In this document: positions 15 to 58,861 of the stretch, piece by piece
How positions within the stretch are numbered: position 1 is the first letter of the stretch
How the letters are laid out: the number at the start of each line of letters is the position of its first letter
Assembly (NCBI GenBank): GCA_052327205.1
Contig: CM126209.1
Location: 183,644,001 to 183,708,000 of the forward strand
Length of the DNA: 64,000 nucleotides
Direction: 5' to 3'
Source: Somniosus microcephalus
Taxonomy: Eukaryota
Made by a program: the position numbers and the translations under genes
The notes under the pieces: generated by a model
Seen by the model: only the letters and a program-made list of their open reading frames with translations
Told to the model about the DNA's origin: nothing
Databases searched by the model: none

Positions 15-1496
15 GTGCACCCGCAAGATGTCCCGAAAACCGCAGTCATCACCCCTTTTGGCCTCTTTGAGTTCCTACGGATGCCGTTTGGCTTGAAGAA
101 CGCGACACAGGCTTTCCAGCGCTTAATGGACTCCGTGCTCCGTGACCTAAACTTCATCTTCGTCTACCTTGATGACATTCTCATCGCCACTGCTAGCAAG
201 GAAGAGCACATCTCCCATTTGTGTACCGTCTTTACACGCCTCAGCCAGCACGGTTTAATCACCAACCCGGCCAAGTGCCAGTTCGGCCTGCAGCGGATCG
301 ATTTCTTGGGACCCCGCATAACATCGGACGGCGCCGTCCCCTTACTGACGAAGGTGGAAGCTGTTACCTCTTTCCCGCGCCCGCCAACCGTCAAGGCCCT
401 GCAAGAGTTCCTGGGGATGGTCAACTTCTATCACCGGTTCGTCCCAAAGGCGGCTCAGCTAATGCAGCCTTTGTACAGGGCCCTCAAGGGCAAGTCCGGT
501 AAGGATCCAATCAGCTGGATGGCTGAGATGGACCAGGTGTTCGTCAACACCAAGAGCGCTTTGGCCAACGCAACCATGCTGGCACACCCGCTTCAAGGTG
601 CCACCATCGCCTTTACCACAGGCGCGTCAGACTACGCCATCGGCGCAGTGCAGGAGCAGTGGGTGAACGGCACGTGGCAACCGCTGCCGTTTTTCAGCCG
701 TCAACTACGGAAAAATGAAAAAAAATACAGCACCTTCGATCGGGAGTTACTGGCCCTTTTCCTAGCCATTCGCCATTTCCGCTTCTTATTAGAAGGACGT
801 CCCTTCACGGCTTTTGTTGACCACAAGCCTCTAACGTTCGCCAATGCCAAGACCACTGAACTGTGGTCCGCTCGTCAACAACGTCACCTATCGTTTATTT
901 CTGAATTTACCACGGACATTCAACATGTGTCTGGTAAAGACAACCTGGTAGCGGATTGCCTCTCCCGCGCGATGGTCCATGCGGTTCACCTGGGGATTGA
1001 CTACGCCCTCATGGCTGCGGATCAGGCCTCGGACCCAGAGGTCCAATCATACAGAACCGTCCCATTTAGTTTCCAAGCGACCGACGTCAGTTTCCAGGCC
1101 GCAGGCACCACTCTCCTTTGCGACGTCTCCATGGGCGTTCCCCGACCTATCGTGCCAGTCGCATGGCGCCGGAAGGAGTTTGACGCCATACACGGGTTGT
1201 CGCACCCTGGTATGGAGGCTTCACAATGGCTAATGTCGGCAAAGTTCGTCTGGAAGGGTATGCACCTCGATGTCCATGACTGGGCCAACACCTGCATGGT
1301 CTGCCAGAAGGCCAAGGTCCAGCGTCATGTTAAAGCTCCAGTGGCTACGTTCGCTGTTCCGGAGCGTCGTTTCGACCACGTGCATGTGGACCTTGTGGGG
1401 CCACTTCCGCCTTCTCATGGTTATACGCATCTCCTCACCATGGTGGACCGCACCACTAGGTGGCCAGAGGCAATTCCTTTGGTTGCCACCACTTCA
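15..1496 (+). pseudogene. Gypsy pol, RT (YLDD)-RNase H-integrase N-terminal half, cut by insertion
   Basis: MPFGLKNA, YLDDILI, RNase H YSTFDRELLA/DHKPL, HHCC zinc finger (H-G-L-S-H...CMVC), integrase VDLVGP. Confidence 0.92.
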
Positions 1497-1603
1497 TAAG
1501 AACATAAGAAATAGGAGCAGGAGTAGGCCAATCGGCCCCTCGAGCCTGCTCCGCCATTCAATAACTAGTACGATAGCAAAATACTGCAGATGTTGGAAAT
1601 CCG

Positions 1604-1905
1604 AAATAACAACAGAAAATGCTGGAAAAACTCAGCAAGTCAGGCAACATCCGTGGAGAGAAATTTGAGTTGACGTTTCGGGTTTGACCCTTCTTCAAAA
1701 CTGGAGAGAAAAGGAACTAGATCGAAGGCAGGGCTGCGATCGGACAAAAGAATAAAAGAACCAAAAGAAGTAAAAGAGATTAGAAGCTAGACGAGATGGT
1801 AATAGGCTGTGATTAGGTGTAAAGTGTACTGGCAGGGCAAAAGATAGCTGCCAGGTGTGAGAGAGAAACAAAAGGAAAGGGGGGGGGGAAAGGAAAGGAG
1901 TGGAA
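1604..1905 (-). repeat. Inverted copy of the PLE pseudo-LTR (partner 3681-3981)
   Basis: ~300 bp, essentially perfect reverse complement of 3681-3981; this copy extends a further ~39 nt (1565-1603). Confidence 0.93.
1668..1702 (-). ncRNA. Second copy of the minimal hammerhead motif, in the inverted pseudo-LTR
   Basis: Exact reverse complement of 3883-3917. Confidence 0.68.
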
Positions 1906-3648
1906 GCTGAACGCCAACTCTCCGACACCTGCTCCTACCTCCACCTGGACCATGACCCCACTACCGAACATCAAACCACCGTTTCCAAGACTGTCACTGA
2001 CCTCATCTCCTCTGGAGATCTTCCCCCCGCTGCCACCAACCTCATAGTTCCCCAACCCCGCACAGCCCGCTTCTACCTCCTTCCCAAGATCCACAAACAG
2101 GACTGCCCTGGTAGACCCATCGTTTCAGCCTGTTCTTGCCCTACGGAACTTATCTCTTCCTATCTTGACTCTATCTTTTCTCCCCTTGTCCAGTCTCTTC
2201 CCACCTACATCCGCGACTCTTCAGACGCCCTCCGCCACTTTAACAGTTTCCAGTTTCCTGGCCCCAACCGTCTCCTTTTCACCATGGACGTACAATCCCT
2301 CTACACCTCCATCCCCCACCCGGATGGCCTGAGGGCACTCCGCTTCTTCCTCGAACAGAGGCCCGACCAGTCCCCATCCACCACGACCCTCCTCCGCCTG
2401 GCTGAACTTCTTCTCACATTGAACAACTTCTCCTTTAACTCCACTCATTTCCTCCAAATCAAAGGTGTTGCCATGGGTACCCGCATGGGTCCTAGCTATG
2501 CCTGCCTTTTCGTGGGCTATGTGGAACAATCTTTGTTCCAGTCCTACTCGGGTCCCCTCCCTCACCTCTTTTTCCGATACATTGATGACTGTATCGGTGC
2601 CGTTTCCTGCTCTCGCCCCGAACTTGACAATTTCATTCACTTTGCCTCCAATTTCCACCCTTCCCTCACCTTCACATGGTCCATCTCTGACTCTTCCCTT
2701 CCCTTCCTCGACTTCTCCGTCTCCATCTCTGGGGATAGGTTATCGACCAATATTTACTACAAGCCCACTGACTCCCACAGCTACCTGGACTACACTTCCT
2801 CCCACCCCGCTTCCTGTAAGGACTCTATTCCATTCTCCCAGTTTCTCCGCCTCCGCCGTATCTGCTCCGACGATGCCACCTTCCACACCAGTGCTTCAGA
2901 CATGTCTTCCTTTTTCCGCAACCGAGGATTCCCCTCTACCGTGGTTGACACTGCCCTCGACCGTGTCAGTTCTATCTCCCGCACCTCTGCCCTCACCCCT
3001 GCCCCTCCCTCCCGGAACCACGATAGGGTTCCCCTTGTCCTCACCTTTCACCCCACCAGCCTCCACATTCAACGGATCATCCTCCGGCATTTCCGCTACC
3101 TCCAAAGTGATCCCACCACCAAACGTATCTTCCCCTCCCCTCCCCTTTCAGCATTCCGCAGGGACCGCTCTCTCCGAGACACCCTAGTCCACTCCTCTAT
3201 CACCCCAAACAGCCCTTCCCCTTCGCCTGGCACCTTCCCGTGCAAGCGGAGGAGATGTAACACCTGCCCCTATACCTCCCCCCTCCCCACTGTCCAGGGC
3301 CCCAAACACCCCTTCCAGGTGAAACAGCGATTTACTTGTACTTCTCGCAATCTAGTATACTGTATTCGCTGCTCACGATGCGGTCTCCTCTACATTGGGG
3401 AGACCAAACGCAGATTGGGTGACCGCTTTGCGGAACACCTCCGTTCAGTCCGTAAGGGTGACCCCGAGCTTCCGGTCGCCTGTCATTTCAATTCACCGCT
3501 CCATTCCCACTCGGACCTCACTGTCCTTGGCCTCTTGTACTGTTCCACGGAAGCTCAACGTAAACTCGAGGAACAGCACCTCATCTTCCGATTAGGCAGT
3601 CTGCAGCCTTCCGGTCTCAATATCGAGTTCAACAATTTCAGATCATAA
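1900..3648 (+). CDS. Penelope-like RT-GIY-YIG polyprotein, N-terminally truncated but uninterrupted for 582 aa
   Basis: FYLLPKIHK, GRPIVS, DVQSLYTSIP, GVAMGT, RYIDD; Cys linker CKRRRCNTC; NLVYCIRCSRCGLLYIGET...RFAEH...GLN. Confidence 0.92.
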   Translation: MEAERQLSDTCSYLHLDHDPTTEHQTTVSKTVTDLISSGDLPPAATNLIVPQPRTARFYLLPKIHKQDCPGRPIVSACSCPTELISSYLDSIFSPLVQSLPTYIRDSSDALRHFNSFQFPGPNRLLFTMDVQSLYTSIPHPDGLRALRFFLEQRPDQSPSTTTLLRLAELLLTLNNFSFNSTHFLQIKGVAMGTRMGPSYACLFVGYVEQSLFQSYSGPLPHLFFRYIDDCIGAVSCSRPELDNFIHFASNFHPSLTFTWSISDSSLPFLDFSVSISGDRLSTNIYYKPTDSHSYLDYTSSHPASCKDSIPFSQFLRLRRICSDDATFHTSASDMSSFFRNRGFPSTVVDTALDRVSSISRTSALTPAPPSRNHDRVPLVLTFHPTSLHIQRIILRHFRYLQSDPTTKRIFPSPPLSAFRRDRSLRDTLVHSSITPNSPSPSPGTFPCKRRRCNTCPYTSPLPTVQGPKHPFQVKQRFTCTSRNLVYCIRCSRCGLLYIGETKRRLGDRFAEHLRSVRKGDPELPVACHFNSPLHSHSDLTVLGLLYCSTEAQRKLEEQHLIFRLGSLQPSGLNIEFNNFRS

Positions 3649-3882
3649 CCTCGGCCCCTATTTCATTTTCACTTACATTTTTCCACTCCTTTCCTTTCCC
3701 CCCCCCTTTCCTTTTGTTTCTCTCTCACACCTGGCAGCTATCTTTTGCCCTGCCAGTACACTTTACACCTAATCACAGCCTATTACCATCTCGTCTAGCT
3801 TCTAATCTCTTTTACTTCTTTTGGTTCTTTTATTCTTTTGTCCGATCGCAGCCCTGCCTTCGATCTAGTTCCTTTTCTCTCC

Positions 3883-3917
3883 AGTTTTGAAGAAGGGTCA
3901 AACCCGAAACGTCAACT
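3883..3917 (+). ncRNA. Minimal type-I hammerhead ribozyme motif in PLE pseudo-LTR
   Basis: AGUU-UUGAAGA-A-GGG(UCAAA)CCC-GAAA-CG-UC-AACU: stem I AGUU/AACU, core with C3U, stem II, palindromic ACGU stem III, GUC cleavage triplet. Confidence 0.7.
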
Positions 3918-4152
3918 CAAATTTCTCTCCACGGATGTTGCCTGACTTGCTGAGTTTTTCCAGCATTTTCTGTTGTTATTTCCGCCATTCAATAAGATCA
4001 TGGCTGATCTGATCCTAACCGCCAATCCACTATCACAGAACCATCTCCTGAATCTAACAGAATTAGACACACGAAATAGGAGCAGGATCAGGCTACACGG
4101 CCCCTGGGCCCGCTCCGCTGCCCACAGGGCCATGACCGATCCGAACCTAGAC

Positions 4153-7104
4153 TCATGTCCAAATTCCTGCCCGCTCCCCGTAACCCTTAATTCCCTTTAC
4201 TTCTAGGAAACTGTCTATTTCTGTTTTAAATTTATGTAATGATGTAGCTTCTACAGCTTTTTGGGGCAGCATATTCCATGGACCTACCACCCTCTGAGTG
4301 AAGTAGTTCCTCCTCATCTCAGTTTTGAAAGAGCAGCCCCTTATTCTAAGACTATGCCCCCTAGTTCTAGTTTCACCCATCATTGGGAACATCCTTACCG
4401 CATCCACCCGATCAAGCCCCTTCACAATCTTATATGTTTCAATAAGATCGCCTCTCATTCTTCTGAACTCCAATGAGTAGAGTCCCAATCTACTCAACCT
4501 CTCCTCATATGTTCATCCCCTCATCCCCGGGATTAACCGAGTGAACCTTCTTTGTACTGACTCGAGAGCAAGTATGTCCTTTCTTAAGTATGGACACCAA
4601 AACTGTACGCAGTATTCCAAGTGCGGCCTCACCAGTACCTTGTACAACTGAAGCAATACCTCCCTATTTTTATATTCTATCCCCCTAGCAATGAAAGCCA
4701 ACATTCCATTGGCCTTCTTAATCACGTGCTGCACCTGCATACTAACCTTTTGAGTTTTGTGCACCAGGACCCCCAGATCCCTTTGTACTTCAGTACTTTC
4801 AAGTTTCTTGCCATTAAGATAATAACTTGCTCTACGATTTTTCCTGCCAAAGTGCATAACCTCACACTTTCCAGTATTGTATCCCATCTGCCAAATCTCT
4901 GCCCACTTACTTAGCCTGTCGATGTCCCCTTGCAGGTTTTTTATGTCCTCCTCACTCACTACTTTCCCTCCCATCTTAGTATCATCTACAAACTTTGATA
5001 TGTTACACGTGGTCCCCTCCTCCAAATCGTTAATATAGATTGTAAAGAGTTGGGGACCCAGCACTGACCCCTGCGGAACACCACTAGTTACTGATTGCCA
5101 GTCTGAGAATGAACCATTTATCCCAACTCTCTGCCTTCTGTTAGATAGCCAATCCTCTATCCATGCCAGAATATTACCCCCAATCCCGTGATTTTTTATC
5201 TTAAGCAATAATCTTTTGTGTGGCACCTTGTCAACTGCCTTTTGGAAGTCTAAATACACTACGTCCACTGGCTCCCCTTTATCCACCCTATACGTTACTT
5301 CCTCAAAGAACTCCAGCAAATTTGTCAAACATGACTTCTCCTTCATAAAACCATGCTGATTTTGTCCTATTAAATTATGATTATCCAAATGTCCTGTTAC
5401 TGTCTCCTTAATAATGGACTCCAAAATTTTACCTACCACAGATGTTAGGCTAACCGGTCTATAGTTTCCAGCCTTCTGTCTACTGCCCTTTTTAAATAAG
5501 GGTGTTACATTAGCAGTTTTCCAGTCTGCCAGGACCTTTGCCGAGTCCAGGGAGTTTTGGAAAATTATTACCAATGCATCCACAATCCCTACCGCCACTT
5601 CCCTCAAGACCCTTGGATGTAAGCCATCGGGTCCAGGTGATTTATCTGCCTTGAGTCCCATTATTTTACCGAGTACCACTTCCTTAGTGATTTTGATCGT
5701 GTTTATCTCCTCCCCCCCTTTAGCCCCCTGTTTGTCCAGTGTTGGGATATTCTTAGTGTCTTCTACTGTAAAGACTGATGTAAAATATTCATTCAGTGTT
5801 TTTGCCATCTCCATATTTTCCACCATTAATTTCCCGGTCTCATCCTCTAAGGGACCAACATTTACTTTAGCCACCCTTTTTCTTTTTATATAACTGTAAA
5901 AACTCTTACTATCTGTTTTTATATTTTGTGCTAATTTACTTTCATAATCTATCTTCCCTTTCTTAATCAATCTTTTTGTTATTTTTTGCTGTCTTTTAAA
6001 GTTTTCCCAATCCTCTATCCTCCCACTAGATTTGGCTACCTTATATGCCCTTGTTTTTCGTCGAATACTATCCTTAATTTCTTTACTTAGCCACGGATGG
6101 CTGTCTTTTCTTTTACACCCTTTTCTTCTCAGTGGAATATATATTTTTTGGAAGTTGTAAAATAACTCCTTGAATGTACACCACTGATCATGTATCGTCT
6201 TACCCTTTAATCTATTTTCCCAATCCACTCTACTCAATTCCGCTCTCATACCTTCATAGTCTCCTTTATTCAAGCTCAGCACGCTTGTTTGAGATCCAAC
6301 CTTCTCACCCTCTAATTGAATATGGAATTCAACCATGTTATGGTCACTCATTCCAAGGGGATCCTTTACTAGGACATTTTTAATTAATCCCGTCTCGTTA
6401 CACAGGACCAGATCTAAGGTTGCTTGCCCCCTGGTCGGTTCAGTTACATACTGCTCAAGAAACCCATCCCTAATACAGTCAATGAACTCATCCTCAAGGC
6501 TGCTCTGCCCAATTTGATTTGTCCAATTAATATGATAGTTGAAATCCCCCATAATTATAGATGTTCCCTTATTACAAGCCTCAACTATTTCCTGATTGAT
6601 ACTCCGTCCAACAGAGTTGCAACTGTTCGGAGGCCTATAGACTACGCCCACTAGTGTTTTTTTCCCCTTATTATTCCTTACCTCCACCCAAACTGTTTCA
6701 TTATCCTGATCTTTTGACCCAATATCATTTCTCTGTATTACAGTGATTCCTTCCTTTATTAACATAGCCACCCCACCTCCCCTTCCTTCCTGCCTGTCCT
6801 TCCTGATCGTTAAATAACCTGGTATGTTTAATTCCCAGGCATTGTCACCCTGCAGCCATGTTTCTGTAATGGCCACAAGATCATACCCATATGTAGTTAT
6901 TTGTGCCATTAACTCATCTATTTTGTTACGAATGCTACGTGCATTCAGATAGAGAACTTTCAAAGTTGTTTTGTGACACTTAGTTCCTGCTTTTGCCCTT
7001 TTTATTACTTTACCTTTTACTCCATACCTTCTGCCCCTTCCTGACATGCTCTGGTTTTTAATTTCCCCACTGCTACCTAAGTCTATTACCTTCTCTGTTG
7101 TCAT
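4153..7104 (-). pseudogene. CR1 ORF2 (APE endonuclease + reverse transcriptase), one frameshift near 4500-4513
   Basis: [24 protein letters not shown] (APE); [23 protein letters not shown] (variant of FADD); C-terminal RRMRGDLIETYK/TRGHSL in ORF 4153..4497. Confidence 0.93.
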
Positions 7105-7141
7105 TTTTATTATTTGCTCTCTAGAACCTCCCCCCCACTAG

Positions 7142-8087: not shown

Positions 8088-8299
8088 TCTATGTAATTAA
8101 TTAAATTTATTAATAGTATTCCTAAATACCCTCTGCTCCGATCCTAGATGGTGAATATCACACCTTAGAAACTATAAACCAAAGAGATTTAAGCTTAAAA
8201 AGGGAGAAATACTTACCAACCAATCACTTACCCGCTTTCTGGTGATGTCACACTTGGATTACTTTTGACCTCCCTCCTCCCAGACTGGAGATTGGTAAA

Positions 8300-9510
8300 C
8301 CTTACCTGGTCTCTGGGACTTTTATAGCCCCGCTCTGCCGCTCAGGATTCCCGCCGACGCACTGAGGCCTTGCCTGGTCTCTGGGACTTTTATAGCCCCG
8401 CTCTGCCGCTCAGGATTCCCGCCGACGCTGTGAGGCCTTACCTGGTCTCTGGGACTTTTATAGCCCCGCTCTGCCGCTCAGGATTCCCGCCGACGCTGTG
8501 AGACCTTACCTGGTCTCTGGGACTTTTATAGCCCCGCTCTGCCGCTCAGGATTCCCGCCGACGCACTGAGGCCTTACCTGGTCTCTGGGACTTTTATAGC
8601 CCCGCTCTGCCGCTGAGTTCCCGCCGACGCTGTGAGGCCTTACCTGGTCTCTGGGGCTTTTATAGACCCGCTCTGCCGCTCAGGATTCCCGCCGACACAC
8701 TGAGGCCTTACCTGGTCTCTGGGGCTTTTATAGCCCCGCTCTGCCGCTCAGGATTCCCGCCGACGCTGTGAGGCCTTACCTGGTCTCTGGGACTTTTATA
8801 GCCCCGCTCTGCCGCTCAGGATTCCCGCCGACGCTGTGAGGCCTTACCTGGTCTCTGGGACTTTTATAGCTCCGCTCTGCCGCTCAGGATTCCCGCCGAC
8901 GCTGTGAGGCCTTACCTGGTCTCTGGGACTTTTATAGCCTCGCTGCTGCCGCTCAGGATTCCCGCCGACGCTGTGAGGCCTTACCTGGTCTCTGGGACTT
9001 TTATAGCCCCGCTCTGCCGCTCAGGTTTCCTGCCGACGCTGTGAGGCCTTACCTGGTCTCTGGGACTTTTATAGCCCCGCTCTGCCGCTCAGGATTCCCG
9101 CCGACGCTGTGAGGCCTTACCTGGTCTCTGGGACTTTTATAGCCCCGCTGCTGCCGCTCAGGTTTCCTGCCGACGCGGTGAGGCCTTACCTGGTCTCTGG
9201 GACTTTTATAGCCCCGCTCTGCCGCTCGAGATTCCCGCCGACGCTGAGGCCTTACCTGGTCTCTGGGACTTTTATACCCCGCTCTGCCGCTCAGGATTCC
9301 CGCCGACGCACTGAAGCCTTACCTGGTCTCTGGGACTTTTATACCCCGCTCTGCCGCTCAGGATTCCCGCCGACGCACTGAAGCCTTACCTGGTCTCTGG
9401 GACTTTTATACCCCGCTCTGCCGCTCAGGATTCCCGCCGACGCACTGAAGCCTTACCTGGTCTCTGGGGCCTTTTATACCCCGCTCTGCCGCTCAGGATT
9501 CCCGCCGACG
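8300..9510 (-). repeat. 18 tandem copies of a ~68-bp GC-rich monomer forming the CR1 5' end; each has TATA box, Inr-like site and splice donor
   Basis: Unit starts at 8300, 8368, 8436, 8504, 8572...9451; minus-strand unit CCTCA(CA/GT)GCGTCGGCGGGAATCCTGAGCGGCAGAGCGGGGCTATAAAAGTCCCAGAGACCAGGTAAGG. Confidence 0.95.
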
Positions 9511-10390
9511 TCGCTAGAGCTTTCACCTCCTGTTGGGTTGCCCGTTTCGGGGTACCGGCAGACATCTCTTCCGACCGTGGGCCACAATTTTCCTCGGAGC
9601 TCTGGAACGCTGTAGCTCAGGGGCTCGGCACCAAACTTCATCGCACCACCGCCTATCATCCACAGGCGAACGGCCTTTGCGAGCGATTCCACAGGTCGCT
9701 TAAAGCCACCCTTCGGGCCAGTCTTCAAGGTGCAAGATGGGTGGACAAACTCCCACAGGTCCTTTTGGGTCTTCGTACGGTGCCCAAAGAAGACCTGCAA
9801 TCGTCCTCAGCCGAACTCGTTTATGGCCAGCCTCTCCGTGTACCAGCGGATTTCCTCACTTCTCCCACAGAGCCATGGTCCACCTCCCAGCAACTCGTCA
9901 GCCACCAGGAAGCGGCCAGATGCTTCGCTCCAGTGCCTACATCAAATCACGGCTTACAGAGCTCCCATGTGCCAGCGGAGCTGAAGAATGCCAAGTACGT
10001 ATTTATCCGCCACAACACTCACCGGGATCCGCTCAAGCCCCCTTACACTGGTCCTTTCCGCGTCATCGAATCGGGAGACAAATCCTTTTCGGTCGATATC
10101 GGAGGAAAGCCGGATCAAATTTCAGTGGACCGGTTGAAGCCGGCTCACCTGGACCTGGACCGCCCAGTCGTCGTCGCTCAACCGCCGAAACGTGGCCGAC
10201 CGCCTGCAGCTGCCATGCCAGATCAACCACAGCCGCCCGCCAACTCGACCACACTCGCCACGCCAGCTCAACCACAACCGCCTGCGAGCTCGACCACCGT
10301 TCATCAGCTTCCTCTGCAAGGTTACCGAAGTCGCTTGGACAGACTTGTCAGGCCTCCTCGACGTCTCACTTTTGCTGGTAAAGATAATTC
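9504..10390 (+). pseudogene. Gypsy integrase C-terminal half (frameshifted)
   Basis: SDRGPQF core motif, YHPQANGLCERFHRSLK, LLGLRT...SSAELVYG, LKPPYTGPFRV, SVDRLKPAHL. Confidence 0.88.
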
Positions 10391-10401
10391 TGGGGGCCGC
10401 A

Positions 10402-10763
10402 TGTGGCGAAGCCACCAAAGGACTCAGATCATTTGTAAATAATTCCTTTAACAACATGTTAGCTACAGTCTGTGTCTGTATCTTTATTTATGCTGTTTAA
10501 CTGTACAGAGTGTGGTTGCTTTAACAGTGCGGCTAAAACGTGATGACGTCACACCGTTCATCACGTGATCCCCCACTGGCGGGAAAATGTGATGACGTCA
10601 TGACGTCAGCCACAGGACTGCAGGAGCAGTCCTCGTGGAGCCTCCAGAGAGAGCAGACCTACATTCGATGTTATCCTGCAGTTTCTTGTTAAAGCCTGTT
10701 TGCTTCATTAAAGTTCGTTTTGTTTGATCGCCTGAGTAGAACTCAATCTTTTAGTTAGGAACA
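10402..10763 (+). repeat. Putative 3' LTR of the Gypsy element
   Basis: Begins TGTGG just after the purine tract; ATTAAA poly(A)-signal-like motif ~10707; 3' boundary (CA at ~10763) uncertain because the 5' LTR is outside the window. Confidence 0.55.
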
Positions 10764-15540: not shown

Positions 15541-15676
15541 AAAGGACGGAAAAGTTTTGGTGTATTCGGAAGAGGTGCTCGGATTGGTTAGCAAACTAGT
15601 CGGAAAAGCACGAGGCTAGGCCGCGGGAGTCGAAACGGAGTTTGATTTTTTTGGCTGCAGTGACCGGACTCCAAGG

Positions 15677-16504
15677 ATGGCAGGAACGGTAGGCTCCGTG
15701 GCACCTTTTGACAGCAAGTCGCAGTCTTGGGAGGAGTATTGTGAAATACTGAGCCATTTCTTTATGGCAAACGAGGTGGACAGTGCTGAAAAGAAAAGGG
15801 CCATTTTACTGAGTTGTGTGGGAGCGCAAACCTATACACGGATGAGGAATCTGCTGAGCCCGGAGCGGCCAGGAGAAAAATCTTTTGACGAGTTGGTGAG
15901 TCTAATAAAGAATCATTTCAATCCGAAACCTAGTGAAATAGTACAGAGATGGAAATTCAATTCGAGGGTTAGGAGGCCGGAAGAAAGCGTTACTGAGTAT
16001 GTGGAGGAGCTTCGGAAGCTCGCACAGGACTGTAATTTTGGAAATGCGCTCACAGTCATGTTAAGGGACAGACTAGTATGCGGAGTTAACGACGACAGTA
16101 TACAGCAAAGGTTGCTGTCAGAAGAAGGATTAACATTTGAGACGACACTTAAAAAAGCACAAGCCATGGAGACGGCTAACAAGGACATTAAGGACTTAAA
16201 CAGTATGAGCAAGGAGAAATGGAGTAAACCAGTGGGAGGAGCTGTTTTCAAGATGGAAGCTGGCGCAAAAAGTCCACCAGTCGGGGTTGGGGATTGCTAC
16301 CGATGTGGCGGGACAAGCCATTATGCAAAGGACTGCAGGTTTGCAAAGACAAAGTGCCACAATTGTGGAAAAATAGGGAACTTAAAGAAAGTCTGTAAAA
16401 GGGCAGTGAGTGAGAGAAGCAGTGCTAAAGGGCAAAGCATGCTAAAGGGGGAGGGAGAAGTATACAAAGCGGGCAAATTACATACAAGAGGAGGAAGAGT
16501 CTAG
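15677..16504 (+). CDS. Gypsy gag with CCHC zinc knuckle(s); frameshift separates it from pol
   Basis: LRDRLVCG capsid motif; CYRCGGTSHYAKDC and degenerate CHNCGKIGNLKKVC. Confidence 0.88.
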   Translation: MAGTVGSVAPFDSKSQSWEEYCEILSHFFMANEVDSAEKKRAILLSCVGAQTYTRMRNLLSPERPGEKSFDELVSLIKNHFNPKPSEIVQRWKFNSRVRRPEESVTEYVEELRKLAQDCNFGNALTVMLRDRLVCGVNDDSIQQRLLSEEGLTFETTLKKAQAMETANKDIKDLNSMSKEKWSKPVGGAVFKMEAGAKSPPVGVGDCYRCGGTSHYAKDCRFAKTKCHNCGKIGNLKKVCKRAVSERSSAKGQSMLKGEGEVYKAGKLHTRGGRV

Positions 16505-16580
16505 TGAGTCTAGTGAGGAGGTTTTCACTATATACAGTATAGACACTTCAAAGCCCAACGTACCCCCTCTCACTCAGTAT

Positions 16581-19500
16581 TTGACAGTGAACAGAGGTCA
16601 AGTGAAGTTTGAGATTGACACCGGATGTAGTGTAACCATAATGTCGCAGACTGAGTACGCCAAGCTATGGGGGGAAGCAAAAGTACCAGAGCGAGGTACA
16701 TGCCCCATTAGTCTCAAAACCTACACAGGACAGAAGGTGGACATTTTGGGGGTCGCCAAAGTACAAGTGGAACACAAAGGAGTCACCAAAGAGCTTACGG
16801 TGGTAGTGGTAGCAGGGTCAGGGCCAAACCTGTTAGGGCGAGGGTGGATCAGTGAGTTGAGTGTGGACTGGCAGGCAATGAATAAAATGGAGGACAGTAC
16901 AGAGGCACTGCAAGAAGTGCTGATGAAGCATGAGTTAGTGTTCAAGGACGAACTGGGCACCTTAAGGGGAGCCACAGCCAAGATTCATGTAGCCAGTGAT
17001 GCCACGCCTCATTTCTTTAAACCAAGGTCGGTACCTTTTGCAATGAAAACCAAGGTTGAGGCGGAACTAGATCACCTGCTAAAGGACAAAGTAATAGAAC
17101 CAGTGAAATTTTCAGACTGGGCGGCACCAATAGTCCCGGTATTGAAGCCCGACGGTAATGTAAGGGTGTGTGGTGACTATAAGTTAACAGTGAACAGAGT
17201 ATCATCACTGGAACAGTACCCCATTCTGAGAATGGAGGAGATTTTAACATCGCTCACTGGGGGAGAAAGATTCAGCAAACTGGACATGAGTCATGCGTAT
17301 CAGCAGATATTGCTAGATGAAGAATCAAAAAAGTTTGTCACGGTGAACACGCACAAGGGGCTGTTCACGTATGCCAGGTTACCATTTGGTGTCAGTTCTA
17401 GCCCAGCAATGTTCCAATGGACTATGAAGGGCGTTCTGCAGGGCATTCCAAAGGTGGCCGTGTACTTAGATGATATTCTGCTAACAGGAAGTGACAATCA
17501 GGATCACGTAAAGACACTGGACAAAGTGCTACAGCGGCTGGAAGAGGCGGGGCTATGCCTGAAACGGAGTAAGTGTAGTTTCATGGAGAAGGAAGTTACA
17601 TTCCTGGGACATCGGGTGGATGCCACAGGCCTCCATCCATTACCAGGGAAAGTGCGGGCAGTGCAGGATGCACCTGCACCCACCTCAGTGACTGAACTGA
17701 AAGCTTATCTAGGGCTCCTGAATTATTATAACCGGTTTCTTCCAAACTTATCGATGCTGCTGGCACCCCTGCACAAACTGCTGAGAAAGGAGGAGCCATG
17801 GCGTTGGGGGCCAGAGCAAGCGAAAGCGTTTCAGCAGTCAAAGGAGCTACTTCAGTCCAGCAGGGTGTTAGTGCATTACGACGAGAAGAAGGAGCTGATA
17901 ATGTCCTGCGACGCATCACCCTATGGAGTGGGGGCAGTGTTGGCCCACCGCATGCCAGATGGAGCGGAAAGGCCCATTGGGTTTTCTTCACGCACGCTCA
18001 CAGCTGCGGAAAAGAACTCTCGGGAGCCGCAAGCCTACATTTCGTTGTACTGCACTTGTGCACTAACAATGACAATAAAAGTTGATTTGATTTGATTGAT
18101 TTGATTTGATAAAGAGGGGTTAGCCATTATATTTGGAGTAAAGAAATTCCATAAGTACATATATGGGAGGAAGTTTGTAATCAGTACTGACCACAAGCCT
18201 CTTATTAGCTTACTGAATGTGATGAAAGCAGTGCCTCAAGTGGCATCACAGAGAATAATGAGATGGGCAGTAATACTAAGAGCCTATGAATATGTGATCA
18301 AGTATAGAGCCGGCAAGGAAAACGGGAACGCTGATGCTCTCAGCCGCCTGCCCCTCTCAAAATCTCCTTGCAGTACTTCCCCTGAGGAGCACGTCCTGAT
18401 GCTGGATCAGGAGATCAGTCCTCTGATGAATTCAGTGCAAATCCAGGGCTGGGCAGCCAAGGACCCCGTTCTGTCAAGGGTCCGTGAGTATGTGTTGAAA
18501 GGCTGGCCAGATCACCGTGAGGGACCGGAGTTTGCGCCGTACAGACAGAGACAGCATGAGCTCAGTGTCCAAGATGGATGTGTGCTATGGGTAGCACGCA
18601 TCATAGTCTCAGAGCGGGGGCGCTCAACTTTGATGGAACAGTTGCATCAATCGCACCCAGGAATGACTAGAATGAAAGGACTGGCTAGGAGCTAATTTGG
18701 ATGCTGAAATTGAGTCAATGGTAAAGTCATGCACTATATGTCAGGAACAAAGGAAAGCATCTGCTGGGGCACCACTCCATCCCTGGGAGTGGCCCAGCAA
18801 ACTCTGGAGGAGAATTCACATAGACTATGCGGGACCTTTTATGGGCAAAATGTTTTTGGTGCTGGTATACGCTCACTCAAAGTGGATTGACGTTTATCCA
18901 GTGAGCTCTGCAACGACTGATGCCACACTGGATTGTCTTAGGAACAGCTTCAGCACGCATGGTATTCCAGAAATGATTGTATCCGACAATGCACAGTGTT
19001 TTGTTAGTGAAGGGAGCAAAGAATTCATGGTAAGGAATGGAATCACACATGTCACCTCGGCTCCATATCACCCAGCCTCAAATGGGTTAGCCGAGCGAGC
19101 TGTGCAGACTTTTAAGGAAGAGCTCAGGTGACACCCTGGAGACCAAGCTCAATAGAGCCTTGTTTAGTTATCGTATAACACCCCAAGCTACCACGGGGCT
19201 TTCTCCGGCTGAGTTGATGATGGGGAGAAAGTTGCGGTGCACGTTAGCCCTGATACACCCAGATCTCAAAAGCAAGGTTGAGACAAAACAAACAAACCAA
19301 AAAGCGTATCATGACAAACATACTAAAGCTCACCATTTCGCCATAGGAGACTCTGTGTACACCCGGAACTTCGGCTATGGACCTAAATGGATACCAGGAC
19401 TAATCCAGGACATTACAGGACCTGTGTCATACTCCGTGCTACTAGGGGATGGTCGAGGGGTTCGTCGGCATGTGGATCAGCTTTTCAGCCGGCAGCAGGG

Positions 19501-19735
19501 GGAACTGCCTCAGGTGGAACAAAGGGCAGTAGAGGAGGCTGTTCCAGGACCCAGCACGGCTTATAAGGTGCCAGTGGACACTGGTACTGCCAGGCCACAG
19601 CGGGACAGAGTAAAACCAACATCAGAGACTACTCCAATCTCAAGTGCGAGTGAATCTGAGAATCCACCACAAGTGGAATTAAGACGTTCACAAAGGATTC
19701 GCAAGCAACCAGAAAGACTTATACAAACCTGTTAA
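16581..19735 (+). pseudogene. Gypsy pol (protease, RT, RNase H, integrase), broken into several ORFs
   Basis: IDTG protease, YLDD, CDASPYG, IHIDYAGP, VSDN, YHPASNGLAERAVQTFK; insertion at ~18020 and small deletions at ~18695 and ~19125. Confidence 0.92.
18020..18106 (+). mobile_element. ~85-bp LINE/SINE 3'-end fragment inserted in Gypsy RNase H
   Basis: Interrupts AEKN...DKEGLAIIFG; ends ATGACAATAAAAG followed by (TTTGA)n microsatellite tail. Confidence 0.65.
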
Positions 19736-29387: not shown

Positions 29388-31869
29388 GAGGCAATTTTTT
29401 TCACTGGAGGTGGGTTTCGGTTTGGGTGGGTTTGAAATCTGCCTCCACTGATAGTTTTCAAAAATTTGCGATTTTCCCATGATTGGCCACTTGATTTCAG
29501 AGGTGTGGGATTGATCAATTAGTGTTTTGGGACTGAAACTCGCCTCTGCTGACTTCACTTTTTCAGTCTGATTTTATGGCTTCTTGCTGCCTTGGCTCAT
29601 TCCACAGGATTTCTGCCTATGCTGCACCACCTGCAACATATTCTGAGAAACCACTATCTCCAATTCCAAGGCAAGGGCCTCCCCGAGGCTCTCAGATGAG
29701 GCGCTGCAAATGTTGTTTGAGGAGGTGACAACTAGCAGGGAGGTGTTCTTCCACTGATCTGGGAGGAAAAGGCCTCCCAAAGAAACCAAGGCTGTGTGGG
29801 TACAGCTGGCAAGGGATATAATTTCCAGATCCGTGTGCAGATTGGGAGAATGTTTCTGTGTATTGATGAACTGCCATCCCTGTTGGAAAGCATTAAAATA
29901 TTTTGATGCCAAAATGTTGGCGTTATGGCATCTGTTCTTTCACCTTAGGCAGCTCCACATTGCGGGCTCCGCCACACTTGCGTTATCAGGTTGGCGGCCA
30001 GAGTGAAAGGAGGCCAGAGAGTCATGTCCATTGTCAATGATGTCTTAGGTTGGAGCCAAGGACATGTGCCAACTTGGGCAACCTATGCAAATCTAGCCAG
30101 GATAAGTTCATCCCTTGCGTCCCGAGCAGCCATGTGCTCGCGTGCTGCCACGGCCGCTGGTCAATACACCAGCGCTCTGACCTCCTCCTGCTCTGCCCCC
30201 TCCTTCTGCTCCTCCTCCTCCTCCTCCTCCTCCAGATCCTCCTCCTCCTCATCCTCATCTGAGGAGGGCTGAAACTGATTCACTTGCTCATCAGGAAGCT
30301 GCAAGCCATGACGCTGTGTGATGTTGTGCAGTGCACAGCAGACCACGGCCATTCTGGAGACCCTGTATAGTGTATACTGCAGGGCTCCATCTGATCGGTC
30401 AAGGCAACAGAAGCGCATCTTCAACAACCTAATGGTTTGCTTGAGGATGGGCCTGGTCGAAGTGTGGCAGGCGTTGTAGTGCTCTTCAGCCTTGTTAGCT
30501 GGCCTCCTGATCAGCGTCGTTAGCCACTTCTTCAGGGGGTAGCCTTTGTCACCAAGGAGCCATCCGTTAAGTTGGTTTGGTGGATTGAAAGGCGGAGGAA
30601 CACTAGACTGCCGCAGGATGAAAGACTCATGGCAACTACCACAGAACTTGACGCAAACATGCAAGAACTCCTTCTTGTGGTTACACACCAGTTGTACGTT
30701 GAGGGAGTGGAAGCCCTTTCGGTTGACAAAGATAGCTGGGTTGTGATGGGGTATCCTAAGGGCCACATGTGTGCAGTCTATGACGCCCTGCACCATTGGC
30801 ATGCCTGCCATATTTGCAAAGCCAACCGAACAGGCGGTTATACTTGCTTGATCCCTTGAGAACTGAATGTAATTGTAGGCCTTAGCAAAAAGGGCATCGG
30901 TAACCTGCATGATGCAATTGTGGGTGGCCGACTGGGAGATGCTGCTAATGTCCGCTGATGATCCCTGGAAGGAGCCTGAGACAAAGAAGTTGAGTGCGGT
31001 GGTGACTTTGACAGTCACTGGTAAGGGGTGTCCACCCATTCCTCTGGGCACCAGGTCTTACTGCAGCAGTCCGCAGATCTCTCGGACAAACTCTCGCGAA
31101 AGTCTCAACCTCCTTTGGCACTGCTGCTCACTCATGTTGAGGTAGCTCATCCTCTGTCTGTAAACCCTCTGTCGGGGGTATCTCCTGCGGCGAGGTGCCT
31201 CGATGCGCCGGCGCCTTCTGCCCTGTGCAGCATCAGGTGGCTGAGCAGGAGGTTGGAGCTCCTGCTGCTGTTGCTCCTGAGCTGCCTGGTTCTGATGCTG
31301 CCGTGGATGCTCCTCATCTGAATCTGAGGTCCATGGAGAAAGAAACAAATGGTTCCCATGCTGCTTGCAGATGCCTCTGTTGGGGAAGTGCTCATTGCAA
31401 GCAAGGAGGTCCCACAGTTGATAGATTCAAGCTGCAGCACCTCCGACTTCGGAAGGCCTTCCAAAAGTGCTCAAAGACCTTTTAAAGCAAAGTTCTGGCA
31501 CCTGCAACTAATCCCTGCTGAAATAAATGATTTCTTGTTGCACCTGCAGCTGTGAGGAGACCCCAACGAGTCAACCCACCCGGTTTAGTTGGCGTGGTTT
31601 AGGAGGGTCGTGGAACATGCCGAAATGCTCGAAAAATCACGAGGGCTTCTGAAAATAGGCTTAGAGAGGCCCTTAACAAGCATTTAATCATCTTAACAAG
31701 CACTATGGCCAGCTGGAGGCGGGACCATTACCCGCCCTCCAAAACCTGCACCGGCAAAATCTCGTGGAGGTGGGTTGGAGGCGGGTTCCAAACCCGTCCT
31801 CATTGTTTCTGATGTTCCCGCCTTTCCCACCTCTAAACCCGCCTCCTCGGACGTCAGAAAATCATCCCC
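29388..31869. mobile_element. Internally deleted PIF/Harbinger transposon
   Basis: Transposase on -; Myb exon-1 remnant on + at ~29670-29830; GG-starting degenerate TIRs, right end GAAAATCATCCCC. Confidence 0.7.
30020..31360 (-). pseudogene. Harbinger (HARBI1-like) DDE transposase with stop/frameshifts
   Basis: [46 protein letters not shown], acidic tail; stop at 31058. Confidence 0.9.
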
Positions 31870-54470: not shown

Positions 54471-57377
54471 TACTTCTAGGAAACTATCTATTTCTGTTTT
54501 AAATTTATTTAATGATGTAGCTTCCACAGCTTTCTGGGGCAGCAAATTCCACAAACCTACCACCCTCTGAGTGAAGAAGTTTCTCCTCATCTCAGTTTTG
54601 AATGAGCAGCCCCTTATTTTAAGATTATGCCCCCTAGTTCTAGTTTCACCCATCATTGGGAACATCCTCACCGCATCCACCCGATCAAGCCCCTTCACAA
54701 TCTTATATGTTTCAATAAGATCGCCTCTCATTCTTCTGAACTCCAATGAGTAGAGTCCCAATCTACTCAACCTCTCCTCATATGACCACCCCCTCATCCC
54801 CGGGATTAACCGAGTGAACCTTCTTTGTACTGACTCGAGAGCAAGTATGTCTTTTCTTAAGTATGGACAACAAAACTGTATGCAGTATTCCAGGTGCGGC
54901 CTCACCAATACCTTGTACAACTGCAGCAATACCTCCCTGTTTTTATATTCCAACCCCCTAGCAATAAAAGCCAACATTCCATTGGCCTTCTTAATCACTT
55001 GCTGCACCTGCATACTAATTTTTTGAGTTTCGTGCACCAGGACCCCCAGATCCCTTTGTACTACAGTACTTTCCAGTTTCTTGCCATTAAGATAATAACT
55101 TGCTCTATGATTTTTCCTGCCAAAGTGCATAACCTCACACTTTCCAGTATTGTATTCCATCTGTCAAATCTCTGCCCACTTACTTAGCCTGTCTATGTCC
55201 CTTTGCAGGTTTTTTATGTCCTCCTCACTCACTACTTTCCGTCCCATCTTTGTATCATCTGCAAACTTTGATATGTTACACTCGGTCCCCTCCTCCAAAT
55301 CATTAATATAGATTGTAAAGAGTTGGGGACCCAGCACTGACCCCTGCGGAACACCACTAGTTACTGGTTGCCAATCTGAGAACGAACCATTTATCCCAAC
55401 TCTCTGCTTTCTGTTAGAGAGCCAATCCTCCACCCACGCCAGAATATTACCCCCAATCCCGTGATTTTTTATCTTGAGCAATAATCTTTTGTGTGGCACC
55501 TTGTCAAATGCCTTTTGGAAGTCTAAATACACTACGTCCACTGGTTCCCCTTTATCCACCCTGTATGTTACTTCCTCAAAAAACTCAAGCAAATTTGTTA
55601 AACATGACTTCCCCTTCATGAAACCATGCTGAGTTTGCCCTATTAAATTATGTTTATCCAAATGTCCCGTTACTGTCTCCTTAATAATGGACTCTAACAT
55701 TTTACCAACCACAGATGTTAGGCTAACAGGTCTATAGTTTCCAGCCTTCTGCCTACTACCCTTTTTAAATAAGGGTGTTACATTAGCAGTTTTCCAATCT
55801 GCCGGGACCTTTGCTGAGTCCAGTGAGTTTTGGAAAATTATTACCAATGCATCCACAATCCCTACCGCTACTTCCCTCAAGACCCTAGGATGCAAGCCAT
55901 CAGGTCCAGGGGATTTATCCGCCTTGAGTCCCATTATTTTACCAAGTACCACTTCCTTAGTGATTTTAATTGTATTTAGTTCCTCCCCCCCTAGAGCCCC
56001 CTGTTTGTCCAGTGTTGGGATATTCTTAGTGTCCTCTACTGTAAAGACTGATACAAAATAATTGTTCAGTGTTTTTGCCATCTCCATGTTTCCCACCATT
56101 AATTTCCCGGTCTCATCCTCTAAGGGAACAACATTTACTTTAGCCACCCTTTTTCTTTTTATATAACTATAGAAACTTTTACTGTCTGTTTTTATATTTT
56201 TTGCTAATTTACTTTCATAATCTATCTTCCCTTTCTTAATCAATCTTTTTGTTATTTTTTGCTGTCTTTTAAAGACTTCCCAATCTTCCATCCTCCCACT
56301 AGATTTGGCTACCTTATATGCCCTTGTTTTTAGTCGGATACTATCCTTAATTACTTTACTTAGCCACGGATGGCTATCTTTTCTTTTACACCCTTTTTTC
56401 CTCAGTGGAATATATTTTTTTTGGAAGTTGTAAAATAACTCCTTAAATGTACACCACTGGTCATGTACCGTCTTACCCTTTAATCTATTTTCCCAGTCCA
56501 CTCTAATTAATTCCGCTCTCATACCTTCATAGCCTCCTTTATTCAAGCTCAGCATGCTTGTTTGAGATCCAACCTTCTCACCCTCTAATTGAATATGGAA
56601 TTCAACCATGTTATGGTCACTCATTCCAAGGGGATCCTTTACTAGGACATTTTTAATTAATCCCGTCTCATTACACAGGACCAGATCTAAGGTTGCTTGC
56701 CCCCTGGTCGGTTCAGTTACATACTGCTCAAGAAACCCATCCCTAATACACTCAATGAACTCTTCCTCAAGGCTGCTCTGCCCAATTTGATTTGTCCAGT
56801 TAATATGATAATTAAAATCCCCCATAATTATAGCTGTTCCCTTATTACAAGCCTCAACTATTTCCTGATTAATACTCCGTCCAACAGAGTTGCAACTGTT
56901 CGGAGGCCTATAGACTACACCCACTAGTGTTTTTTTCCCCTTATTATTCCTTACCTCCACCCAAACTGTTTCACTATCCTGCTCCTTTGACCCAATATCA
57001 TTTCTCTGTATTATAGTGATTCCTTCCTTTATTAACATAGCCACCCCACCTCCTCTCCCTTCCTGCCTGTCCTTCCTGATTGTTAAATAACCTGGTATGT
57101 TTAATTCCCAGTCATGGTCACCCTGCAGCCATGTTTCTGTAATGGCCACAAGATCATACCCATATGTCATTATTTGTGCCGTTAACTCATTCATTTTGTT
57201 ACGAATGCTACGTGCATTCAGATAAAGAACTTTCAAATATGTTTTGCAACACTTAGTTCCTGTTTTTTCCCTTTTTATTACTTTACTTTTTACTCCATAC
57301 CTTCTGTCCCTTCCTGACACATTCTGTTTTTTAATTCCCCCACTGCTACCTAAGTCTATGACCTTCTCTGTTGTCAT
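54471..57377 (-). pseudogene. CR1 ORF2 with one TGG>TGA stop at 55164-55166 and loss of the last few codons
   Basis: 737-aa ORF and the ORF from 55160 are in the same frame; KWAEI*QMEY vs KWAEIWQMGY in copy 1; FADD intact. Confidence 0.92.
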
Positions 57378-57415
57378 TTCTATTATTTGCTCTCTAGAAA
57401 CCTCCCCCCCACTAA

Positions 57416-58339
57416 TTAGTTTAAAGCCCTCTCTACAGCCCTAGTTAAATGATTCGCCAGGACTCTAGTCCCAGCACTGGCCAAGTGGAGTCCGTCCCAA
57501 CAGAACAGCTCCCTCCTGTCCCAGTACTGGTGCCAGTGTCCCAAGAAGCAAAACCCATTTCTCCCACACCAGTCTTTGAGCCACGCATTTAACTCTTTAA
57601 TTTTATTTATCCTAGCCAAATTCGCTCGTGGCTCAGGTAATAACCCAGAGATTATTACCCTTGAGGTTCTGTTTTTTAATTTGACCCCTAGCTGCTCATA
57701 CTCCTTTAACAGAACCGTCTTCCTTGTCCTATCTACGTCGTTTGTACCAACATGGACCATGACAACTGGATCCTCCCCCTCCCACTGCAAGTTTCTTTCC
57801 AGCCCAGAAGAGATGTCCTTAACCCTGGCACCAGGCAGGCAACACAGCCTTCGGGACTCCCGCTCTTGACTGCAGAGAACCCTATCTATCCCCCTAATGA
57901 TACTATCCCCTACCACTACAACATTTCTTTTTACTCCCTCCACTTGAATGGCCCCCTGTACCACGGTGCTGTGGCCAGGTTGCTCATCCTCCCTGCAGTC
58001 CCCGCTCCCGCCCTCACAGGGAGTAAGAACCTCGATCCTGCTGGACAAGAACAAGGGCTGCGTCTCCTTCAACACTACATCCTGGATCCCTGTACCTTCC
58101 TCACTCATAGTCACACCGTCCTGTCCCTGACCACGGACTACATCTGCAGTAATTAACTTCATAGGTGTGACCATCTCCTGAAACATAGAGTCCAGGAACT
58201 TCTCCCCCTTCCTGATGTGTCGCAGTGTCCGAAGCTCGGTCTCAAGCTCCATAACATGGAACTTGAGTTCCTCTAGCAGCAAACACTTGTCGCAGATGTA
58301 ATCACCGTTAGCCTCAATGGGGTTCACCGGCTCCCACAT
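57416..58339 (-). CDS. CR1 ORF1 (zinc finger/leucine zipper + SGNH esterase)
   Basis: [25 protein letters not shown]; the true start may lie slightly upstream. Confidence 0.88.
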
Positions 58340-58615
58340 CTCGCAACAGTATTATTAGTTATGAAGACCCTGCCCGGATATATATGATAATATCACACCA
58401 CTATTCAATAGGACTTACCAACTTAAAGGTATGAAAGAGAAGAGAAGGAAGAAAACCAACCAACCAGCTGATCACCAACCTCCTCCTTGAATACTGTCTG
58501 TGGAGCCTGTTTGGTTGACTCGTCTCGCTGCTCCGCCTCCACAGTGCTGTCTAAGCCTGGGAGTGGGGAACAAAACAGAGCAAAAAACACACCCTCACCT
58601 CCCACTTATCCGAAC

Positions 58616-58861
58616 TCTCCCACTTAGCAAAACTCCAACAGCACTCAATGCACAAAGCACTCCGTGCACTGCACTAGCCCCTCCCCTTTTATACCCGGAT
58701 TCTACTTCCTGTTTAAACTGCCCAAGAGTTTAAAAAACCCTTAAAAAATTAAACTTACTTCAAATAATTGCCTTCTTAACACACTAAAATTCACAAAATA
58801 CACTTAAATGATTTTTCTCCCACTTAGCAAAACTCCAACAGCACTCAATGCACAAAGCACT
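58616..58861 (-). promoter_or_regulatory. CR1 5' terminal module: 46-bp direct repeat at 200-bp spacing with internal ETS-like site and TATA box
   Basis: Identical 58616-58661 and 58816-58861; minus strand CAGGAAGT-AGAATCCGGG-TATAAAAGGGG with first T at 58693. Confidence 0.7.

What the first reader, a model, noticed from the sequence alone, without database searches (positions are those of the whole stretch)
8300..9510. CR1 5' end is an array of 18 self-contained core promoters (TATA + Inr at exact spacing)
Seen: on the element's sense strand each 68-bp monomer reads GGGG(C)TATAAAAG-TCCCAGAGACCAGGTAAGG-C(C/T)TCA(C/G). The A of (C)TCA is base 32 counting from the first T of TATA, i.e. TATA at -31. 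Established: that is canonical TATA-Inr geometry, the same as the adenovirus major late promoter (GGGGCTATAAAAG...CCTCAC). LINEs normally need internal, TATA-less promoters because anything upstream of +1 is lost on retrotransposition; mouse L1 uses tandem monomers but they are TATA-less. Seen: the element's 5' junction (9504-9510) lies only 4-11 nt inside the predicted +1 of a monomer. Inference: each monomer drives transcription starting in the next one, so the LINE can use an upstream TATA promoter and spend one or more monomers per generation, refilling by array expansion. I do not know of this being described for CR1.
Basis: partly seen in the sequence, partly recalled or inferred. Interest (0 to 1): 0.8.

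Follow-up and report, generated by a model that had tools for sequence, protein, structure and literature searches.

The report
TATA-box promoter arrays on CR1 LINEs
A jumping gene of the CR1 type carries a row of spare TATA-box promoters at its front end, and its copies across the genome tend to begin just where such a promoter would start RNA, so it seems to use up a promoter unit each time it copies itself, much like mouse LINE-1 but with an ordinary upstream promoter.

Summary
The array is real: about 18 copies of a 68-bp unit, each with TATAAAAG, at the 5' end of a CR1-type LINE. The predicted phasing holds. 48 of 89 independent copies begin 30-38 bases after the first T of a TATA box (12% expected), with a sharp upstream edge. 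21 of 21 arrays found by monomer lead into the CR1 UTR. A sister CR1 in the same window (ORF2 93% identical) carries an unrelated 200-bp monomer whose best match to the 68-mer is the TATA box; 35 of 56 of its copies begin at TATA+27..42. Duplicated copies differ by whole units, so arrays change length after insertion. Best reading: TATA-positioned initiation that spends upstream units. Not shown: capped ends or TATA dependence. Minor monomers have degenerate boxes, and RNA-seq was uninformative. Phased monomer promoters are known in mouse L1 (TATA-less), 5' repeats in CR1-group elements are mentioned in one figure legend, and this scan noted phased monomers on a CR1/L2 LINE in another genome. 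New variant of a known kind.

The parts
8300..9510 (-). Tandem array of about 18 68-bp monomers, each with TATAAAAG (base 1), a CAG|GTAAGG splice-donor-like motif (base 22) and, in 17 units, TCA (A at base 32 or 33); CpG-rich (5 CpG per unit)
9507..9510 (-). 5' junction of the CR1: 4-base microhomology with the Gypsy target, monomer base 36-40, no target duplication
   Evidence: (4 uninterrupted target copies)
8088..8299 (-). Unique 5' UTR (tether) between array and ORF1, with two more GTAAGT donor-like motifs and pyrimidine-AG tracts; a 35-mer from it has 1176 exact matches in the genome
7359..8087 (-). ORF1 (Cys-rich N-terminus, esterase-type by 93% DNA identity to the sister copy); cut short by a frameshift near 7370 in this copy, no Pfam hit on its own
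4153..7137 (-). ORF2, APE endonuclease + reverse transcriptase; in-frame stop at 4513-4515
3981..4152 (-). 3' UTR, first part (interrupted by the Penelope-like element)
1603..3982 (+). Penelope-like element (RT + GIY-YIG ORF 1861-3648, 303-bp inverted terminal repeats) inserted in the CR1 3' UTR; not part of the promoter system
   Evidence: (both Pfam hits below curated cut-offs)
1496..1563 (-). True 3' end of the CR1, ending in an 8-bp-repeat tail rather than poly-A
9511..10442 (+). Right half of the Gypsy integrase region into which the CR1 inserted (left half ends at 1495)
58617..58861 (-). 5' end of a sister CR1: remnant of an unrelated 200-bp monomer array, one TATAAAAG left (first T 58693), 5' end at base 33 of the preceding unit
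54471..58351 (-). Body of the sister CR1 (esterase ORF1, APE-RT ORF2 93% identical in protein to the array-bearing copy)

Best explanation
The array is the element's promoter. Each unit is a Pol II core promoter in which a TATA box positions initiation about 31 bases downstream, at the C31-A32 step (C30-G31 in the 200-bp sister monomer). The RNA lacks the TATA box that fired and everything upstream, but keeps all downstream units. Full-length reverse transcription ends at or a few bases inside +1 (5' joining by short microhomology), so each new copy has at least one TATA box fewer than its parent. Copies are refilled by tandem-repeat instability after insertion. Shown: anatomy, linkage to CR1, phasing, the same TATA offset in an unrelated monomer, post-insertion length change. 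Inferred: that the phased ends are capped starts, that TBP/TATA sets them, and that expansion balances loss.
For: 48 of 89 independent copies end at base 30-38 (uniform 13%, caller null 12%; p about 1e-19 to 1e-21), circular mean 32.3. The edge is sharp: 2 ends at 25-29 against 35 at 30-34, and 11 at 16-29 against 56 at 30-43. A second sample gives 17 of 39. In the 200-bp family 35 of 56 TATA-bearing copies end at 27-42 (8% of the unit) and 4 of 7 copies with no TATA left end 27-34 after the position of the last TATA. The best local match between the two monomers is an 11-base stretch over the TATA box. Bases 1-32 of the 68-mer are 98-99% conserved against 91% for non-CpG bases 35-68 over 635 units. 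Spacing fits the -29 to -32 optimum with a pyrimidine-purine start (PMC1779604). 21 of 21 arrays lead into the CR1 UTR and 28 of 30 UTR copies carry monomers. Same-flank duplicates differ by whole units (2128/611/542 and 821/413 bases), and neighbouring units are more alike than distant ones (3.1 against 4.2 differences). In the 68-mer the peak is not at predicted RNA-structure barriers (base 32 ranks 9-54 of 68).
Against: There is no direct 5'-cap or reporter evidence. The RNA lay listed no start pile-up in the array (8 of 10 rows shown; fragmented, not cleanly stranded libraries). An extra 5' G was not significant (10 of 43 against 4 of 46, p=0.08) and rare in the 200-bp family (3 of 39). 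41 of 89 ends lie outside 30-38. Minor monomer types have non-canonical boxes (TACAAATA, TACAAGAG, TTGAAAAA, TTCAAAAA), yet the few scored end at similar offsets, so a canonical TATA may not be required. In the 200-bp and TACAAATA monomers a modest hairpin ends near base 30-33. The 11-base shared match is only marginal against shuffles (11 of 300). The direction of array length change is not known.
Confidence: 0.78

Rival explanations
1. The monomers are promoters and the phased ends are start sites, but the start is set by the initiator and neighbouring elements (the nearly invariant GAGACCAGGTAAGG block or downstream factor sites), as with YY1/AP-1 in mouse L1; the A/T box is a helper or incidental.
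For: Bases 18-27 are the most conserved part of the 68-mer (99.8%) and persist in variants that have lost a canonical TATA; a few such copies end at the equivalent place.
Against: The 200-bp monomer lacks that block and TCA, shares only the TATA stretch, has a single TATAWAWR per unit, and still ends at the same offset. Canonical-TATA monomers dominate the UTR-anchored sample.
Confidence: 0.13
2. The phase is a truncation hotspot: reverse transcriptase stalls at a hairpin or joins by microhomology at a favoured place in every unit, and transcription starts elsewhere (upstream host promoters).
For: Short hairpins end near base 30-33 in the 200-bp and TACAAATA monomers (base 32 ranks 2-11 of 200 and 8-65 of 68). 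Microhomology is seen at the window junction. One of four 68-mer structure profiles correlated weakly with ends (rho 0.29, p 0.018).
Against: The strongest barriers in the 68-mer are at bases 13-17 and 1-6, which hold only minor groups of ends (10 at 11-18 and 5 at 1-6 of 89). The other profiles show no correlation. A hotspot would have to fall about 31 bases behind a TATA box in two unrelated sequences, and RT reads through up to 34 or more units.
Confidence: 0.07
3. The array is a neutral minisatellite or a splice-donor array that happens to sit at the CR1 5' end.
For: Each unit has a strong donor-like motif; the 200-bp unit has one too.
Against: Never found free of CR1 (0 of 21); phasing; no spliced retrocopy in 33 ORF1-anchored loci and no splice joint among the 15 of 29 joint rows shown; the TACAAATA monomer has no donor.
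Confidence: 0.02

Closest known systems
Mouse L1Md monomeric promoters (A, Tf, Gf monomers plus tether; PMC6454616, PMC7778262, passages read)
   Same: Tandem monomers of variable number at the 5' end, a tether to ORF1, 5' ends of genomic copies concentrated at one place in the monomer (matched to CAGE starts in mouse), refill by duplication or unequal crossing-over.
   Different: Different LINE clade (esterase ORF1, 8-bp tail). Mouse monomers are TATA-less with starts near internal YY1/AP-1 sites (PMC2894050, PMC6454616 passages). Here a TATA box lies about 31 bases upstream of the ends, units are 68 bp, and arrays are longer (median 7.6 against means near 3).
Drosophila HeT-A tandem promoter and Penelope pseudo-LTR (as described in PMC2377424, passages read)
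   Same: Sequence upstream of the transcribed unit drives the downstream copy and is not carried in the RNA.
   Different: There the upstream part is the 3' end of a neighbouring element, and the Penelope promoter is described as TATA-less; here it is a dedicated 5' array.
5' repeating subunits in ORF1-less CR1-group elements (PMC13343379, Fig. 4 legend)
   Same: Tandem subunits near the 5' UTR of CR1-group LINEs, species-specific.
   Different: Reported for ORF1(-) elements, 1-5 units of 100-500 bp. The main text has no occurrence of 'promoter', 'monomer' or 'tandem'. Here ORF1(+) elements, up to 40+ units, with TATA and phasing.
CR1 subfamilies with replaced 5' UTRs (Haas et al. 2001; title seen in a reference list only)
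   Same: Near-identical ORF2 with unrelated 5' regulatory regions.
   Different: Here both unrelated regions are TATA monomer arrays.

Membership tests
CR1-group LINE | ORF2 with APE endonuclease and RT | tested here: met
   Pfam RVT_1 6e-28, Exo_endo_phos 6e-13
CR1-group LINE | Esterase-type ORF1 | tested here: met
   Sister copy: Lipase_GDSL_2 1e-9, PDB 4c1b 3e-28. The window's frameshifted ORF1 has no Pfam hit but lies in the 93%-identical block.
CR1-group LINE | Short-repeat 3' tail rather than poly-A | tested here: met
   8-bp repeat tail in the window and in 9 of 10 longer loci; the tenth lacks its 3' part
Canonical CR1 (versus L2) | RT phylogeny with reference elements | not tested
   No reference RT set at hand; the label CR1 rests on the features above and on recalled ORF2 motifs
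TATA-Inr Pol II core promoter | TATAWAWR box | tested here: met
   18 of 18 window units; 551 of 681 units in the sample, which includes variant types
TATA-Inr Pol II core promoter | Pyrimidine-purine start 29-32 bases from the box | tested here: met
   C31-A32 in 16 of 18 units; C30-G31 in the 200-bp unit; norm from PMC1779604
TATA-Inr Pol II core promoter | Capped RNA 5' ends at the predicted base | tested here: inconclusive
   Only the genomic proxy; RNA-seq lay lists no pile-up in the array; extra G not significant
TATA-Inr Pol II core promoter | Activity depends on the TATA box | not testable with these tools
   Needs a reporter assay
Mouse-L1-type monomer promoter | Variable-number tandem monomers plus tether | tested here: met
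   1-34 units in 89 copies, 7 more run past the fetched stretch
Mouse-L1-type monomer promoter | 5' ends phased within the monomer | tested here: met
Mouse-L1-type monomer promoter | TATA-less, on an L1-clade element | tested here: not met
   TATA present; esterase ORF1 and 8-bp tail. It works like one but is not a member.
Free minisatellite | Occurs unlinked to the retroelement | tested here: not met
   0 of 21 monomer-anchored arrays lacked the CR1 UTR (arrays from the first 117 Mb of contig C1 only)

The most novel reading that the evidence does not exclude
This CR1 lineage has given up the internal-promoter rule as a general strategy. It carries exchangeable cassettes of expendable, classical upstream TATA promoters, acquired independently at least twice (68-bp and 200-bp units, perhaps a third) on the same ORF2. 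Each copy's remaining TATA count is a counter of generations left unless the array re-expands, and thousands of such arrays seed TATA promoters and splice donors across the host genome.
Probability: 0.55. Interest if true: 0.75.

Novelty: new variant of a known kind. Interest (0 to 1): 0.62.

Why it matters
LINE promoters are generally described as internal and TATA-less because upstream sequence is lost on copying. A vertebrate CR1 that uses ordinary upstream TATA promoters and pays for them with repeat units is a clear exception. It repeats the mouse L1 monomer solution in another clade, twice, with unrelated sequences. Because a TATA box fixes the start to within a few bases, these copies give a genomic read-out of start sites and of promoter units lost per generation. 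That makes the open question of how monomer arrays are maintained (PMC6454616 calls the mechanism unclear) countable. More than a thousand copies in each family may also supply promoters to host genes.

Tried and rejected
RNA: no RNA holder listed. Two raw RNA runs added by species label cover the array at about 10-30-fold lower depth than ORF2, but list no start pile-up in the array and no splice joint in the rows shown; this could be read-through and is not used as support. Extra 5' G as a cap trace: not significant. Spliced retrocopies from the monomer donor: 0 of 33 ORF1-anchored loci. Target-site duplications: none evident by eye at 9 copies with both ends or in the window. RNA-structure stall: not supported for the 68-mer, not excluded for two other monomers. 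The automatic calls for the TACAAATA monomer were unreliable (over-extended 3 of 9); by eye, 7 of 8 independent pure arrays end at base 31-37 and one at about 41, so I treat this as weak. Searches for the rarer monomer types gave only 2 and 3 matches. (first half) and 67 failed on script bugs and were rerun. Literature searches listed nothing on TATA monomer arrays in CR1; Repbase, Dfam and subscription journals could not be searched.

Full report
Observation. The - strand of 8300-9510 is a tandem array of 17.9 units of 68 bp, 95% matches, with 18 TATAAAAG boxes. The A of TCA is base 32 from the first T in 16 of 18 units, base 33 in the 5'-most unit, and absent after the last box, which runs into a 212-bp unique UTR. 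Downstream lie ORF1 (8087-7359, frameshifted) and an APE-RT ORF2 (7137-4153, one stop). The 3' end is at 1496, beyond a Penelope-like insertion, and ends in an 8-bp repeat tail. The element sits in a Gypsy integrase. Four uninterrupted target copies show 4 bases of microhomology and a short target loss, so its 5' end is monomer base 36-40. The genome is 6.4 Gb; a cartilaginous-fish host is my impression from recall, not tested.

Phasing, first family. I took 120 loci: 30 best DNA matches and 90 of the 97 exact matches to the array/UTR junction. Seven were dropped because the array ran off the fetched stretch and 24 were collapsed as same-flank duplicates. I then dropped 2 with divergent monomers and restored 2 that were separate insertions into one repeat family, leaving 89. 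A few of these carry variant monomers and were scored against the window's profile, so their phase is approximate. 48 of 89 ends fall at base 30-38, against 13% for uniform and 12% in 1500 simulated random cuts; the circular mean is 32.3. The upstream edge is sharp: 2 ends at 25-29, 35 at 30-34. Calls at 30-31 can be chance or target matches. A second sample anchored on the UTR or the monomer (48 loci; 6 with fewer than two recognised boxes and 3 edge cases not counted) gave 17 of 39, p 3e-6; it includes one locus shared with the first sample and one duplicate pair. One UTR copy starts about 34 bases after where the last TATA would be and has no box left, as the model predicts (L249).

Linkage and refill. 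21 of 21 monomer-anchored arrays lead into the CR1 UTR, and 28 of 30 UTR-anchored copies carry monomers. Unit number ranges from 1 to 34, median 7.6, with longer ones unresolved. Copies with the same flank differ by whole units (2128, 611, 542; 821, 413; eight histone-cluster copies 461-1014, mixed monomer types). Adjacent units differ less (3.1) than distant ones (4.2) or units of other arrays (7.1). Arrays therefore change length in place; the direction is not known.

Independent replication. A second CR1 in the window (58861-54471) has an ORF2 identical at 685 of 737 residues but an unrelated 200-bp, AT-rich monomer with one TATAAAAG. The best local match between the two monomers is 11 bases over the TATA box, marginal against shuffles (11 of 300). 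I scored the first 70 of 1445 UTR-anchored matches, all on contig C1, and dropped 2 duplicates and 5 copies with internal deletions. 35 of 56 TATA-bearing copies end at base 27-42 and 24 of 56 at 30-38 (p 1e-24 and 5e-18); 4 of 7 copies with no TATA end at 27-34. Most copies (40 of 63) keep one TATA. A biased earlier sample gave 22 of 27 at 27-39. This monomer has no TCA at 32 but a C30-G31 step. Both spacings fit the -29 to -32 window with a pyrimidine-purine start reported for mouse TATA promoters (PMC1779604; abstract and one results section read).

Results against. Minor monomers on the first family's UTR or a related one have degenerate boxes (TACAAATA, TACAAGAG, TTGAAAAA, TTCAAAAA), and the few that could be read end at similar offsets, so a canonical TATA may not be needed. 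The donor-like block at bases 18-27 is slightly more conserved than the TATA box (99.8% against 98.2%). RNA structure upstream of the cut does not explain the peak in the 68-mer, whose strongest barriers are at 13-17 and 1-6, but modest hairpins end near 30-33 in the 200-bp and TACAAATA monomers. An extra 5' G was not significant. RNA-seq reads cover the array but list no start pile-up or splice joint in the rows shown, and no spliced retrocopy was seen in 33 loci. Nothing here shows a cap or TATA dependence directly.

Mechanism. Most likely (0.78) each TATA box positions initiation about 31 bases downstream. The RNA loses that box and keeps the rest, full-length cDNA joins at or a few bases inside +1, and tandem instability refills the array. 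Rivals: start sites set by initiator or neighbouring elements rather than TATA (0.13), a reverse-transcription hotspot (0.07), a neutral or splice-related repeat (0.02).

Comparison with what is known. Mouse L1 has tandem monomer promoters whose genomic 5' ends cluster at CAGE-confirmed starts near AP-1 or YY1 sites, with refill by duplication or crossing-over (PMC6454616, passages; PMC7778262, passages); these are described as TATA-less (PMC2894050, passages). HeT-A and Penelope use upstream tandem copies (PMC2377424, passages). A 2026 survey of CR1-group elements mentions 1-5 repeated subunits of 100-500 bp near the 5' UTR of ORF1-less elements in a figure legend, with no occurrence of 'promoter' in the main text (PMC13343379, passages; supplements not read and could bear on this). 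PMC5381506, PMC2881922 and PMC8535693 (passages) add no TATA monomer case. Searches listed none either, but Repbase, Dfam and closed journals were out of reach.

Verdict. It works like the mouse L1 monomer promoter but is not a member of that family. What appears new is an upstream TATA box as the positioning signal, in a CR1, found twice in unrelated monomers. New variant of a known kind; interest 0.62.

Noticed in passing
window 58617-58861 (-); L126-L155, L171-L240: Sister CR1 family (1445 exact UTR matches, many 99-100% identical) with a 200-bp TATA monomer array; arrays of 11 or more units exist (L131).
   Followed up: yes
L098/L157 and L119/L160: Two CR1 subfamilies with different monomers joined head to head, both beginning near their predicted +1; L124 shows an inverted array piece.
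   Followed up: partly
L055, L067, L058, L248, L156-L170: At least five further monomer types (59-90 bp) on the same or a related UTR, some arrays mixing types; the A/T box varies while the donor-like block is kept in most.
   Followed up: partly
window 8300-9510 and 8199-8233; 200-bp unit base 136: Strong 5' splice-site-like motifs in each 68-bp unit, in the UTR and in the 200-bp unit; no spliced product found. A U1-binding role is possible (speculation).
   Followed up: partly
L065 group (contigs C7, C89): An array-bearing CR1 sits just downstream of a histone H1-like gene and was duplicated at least 8 times with different array lengths.
   Followed up: partly
window 1549-1563 and 3981-3995: The Penelope-like insertion in the CR1 3' UTR has 303-bp inverted terminal repeats and is flanked by a 15-bp duplication of CR1 sequence.
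   Followed up: partly
L191: A 200-bp-family copy has an internal junction from base 10 of one unit straight to base 31 of the next; a microhomology deletion or a 5' end joined onto another array.
   Followed up: no
window 30161-31426 (-), 53187-54464 (+), 39143-39568 (+), 59571-60053 (-), 15620-19735 (+): ORFs that look by recall like PIF/Harbinger nucleases and Myb/SANT partners, and a second Gypsy pol region.
   Followed up: no
window 58865-59076: A 93-bp, 2.3-copy tandem repeat abuts the 5' end of the sister CR1; it belongs to the flank, not to the 200-bp monomer.
   Followed up: no
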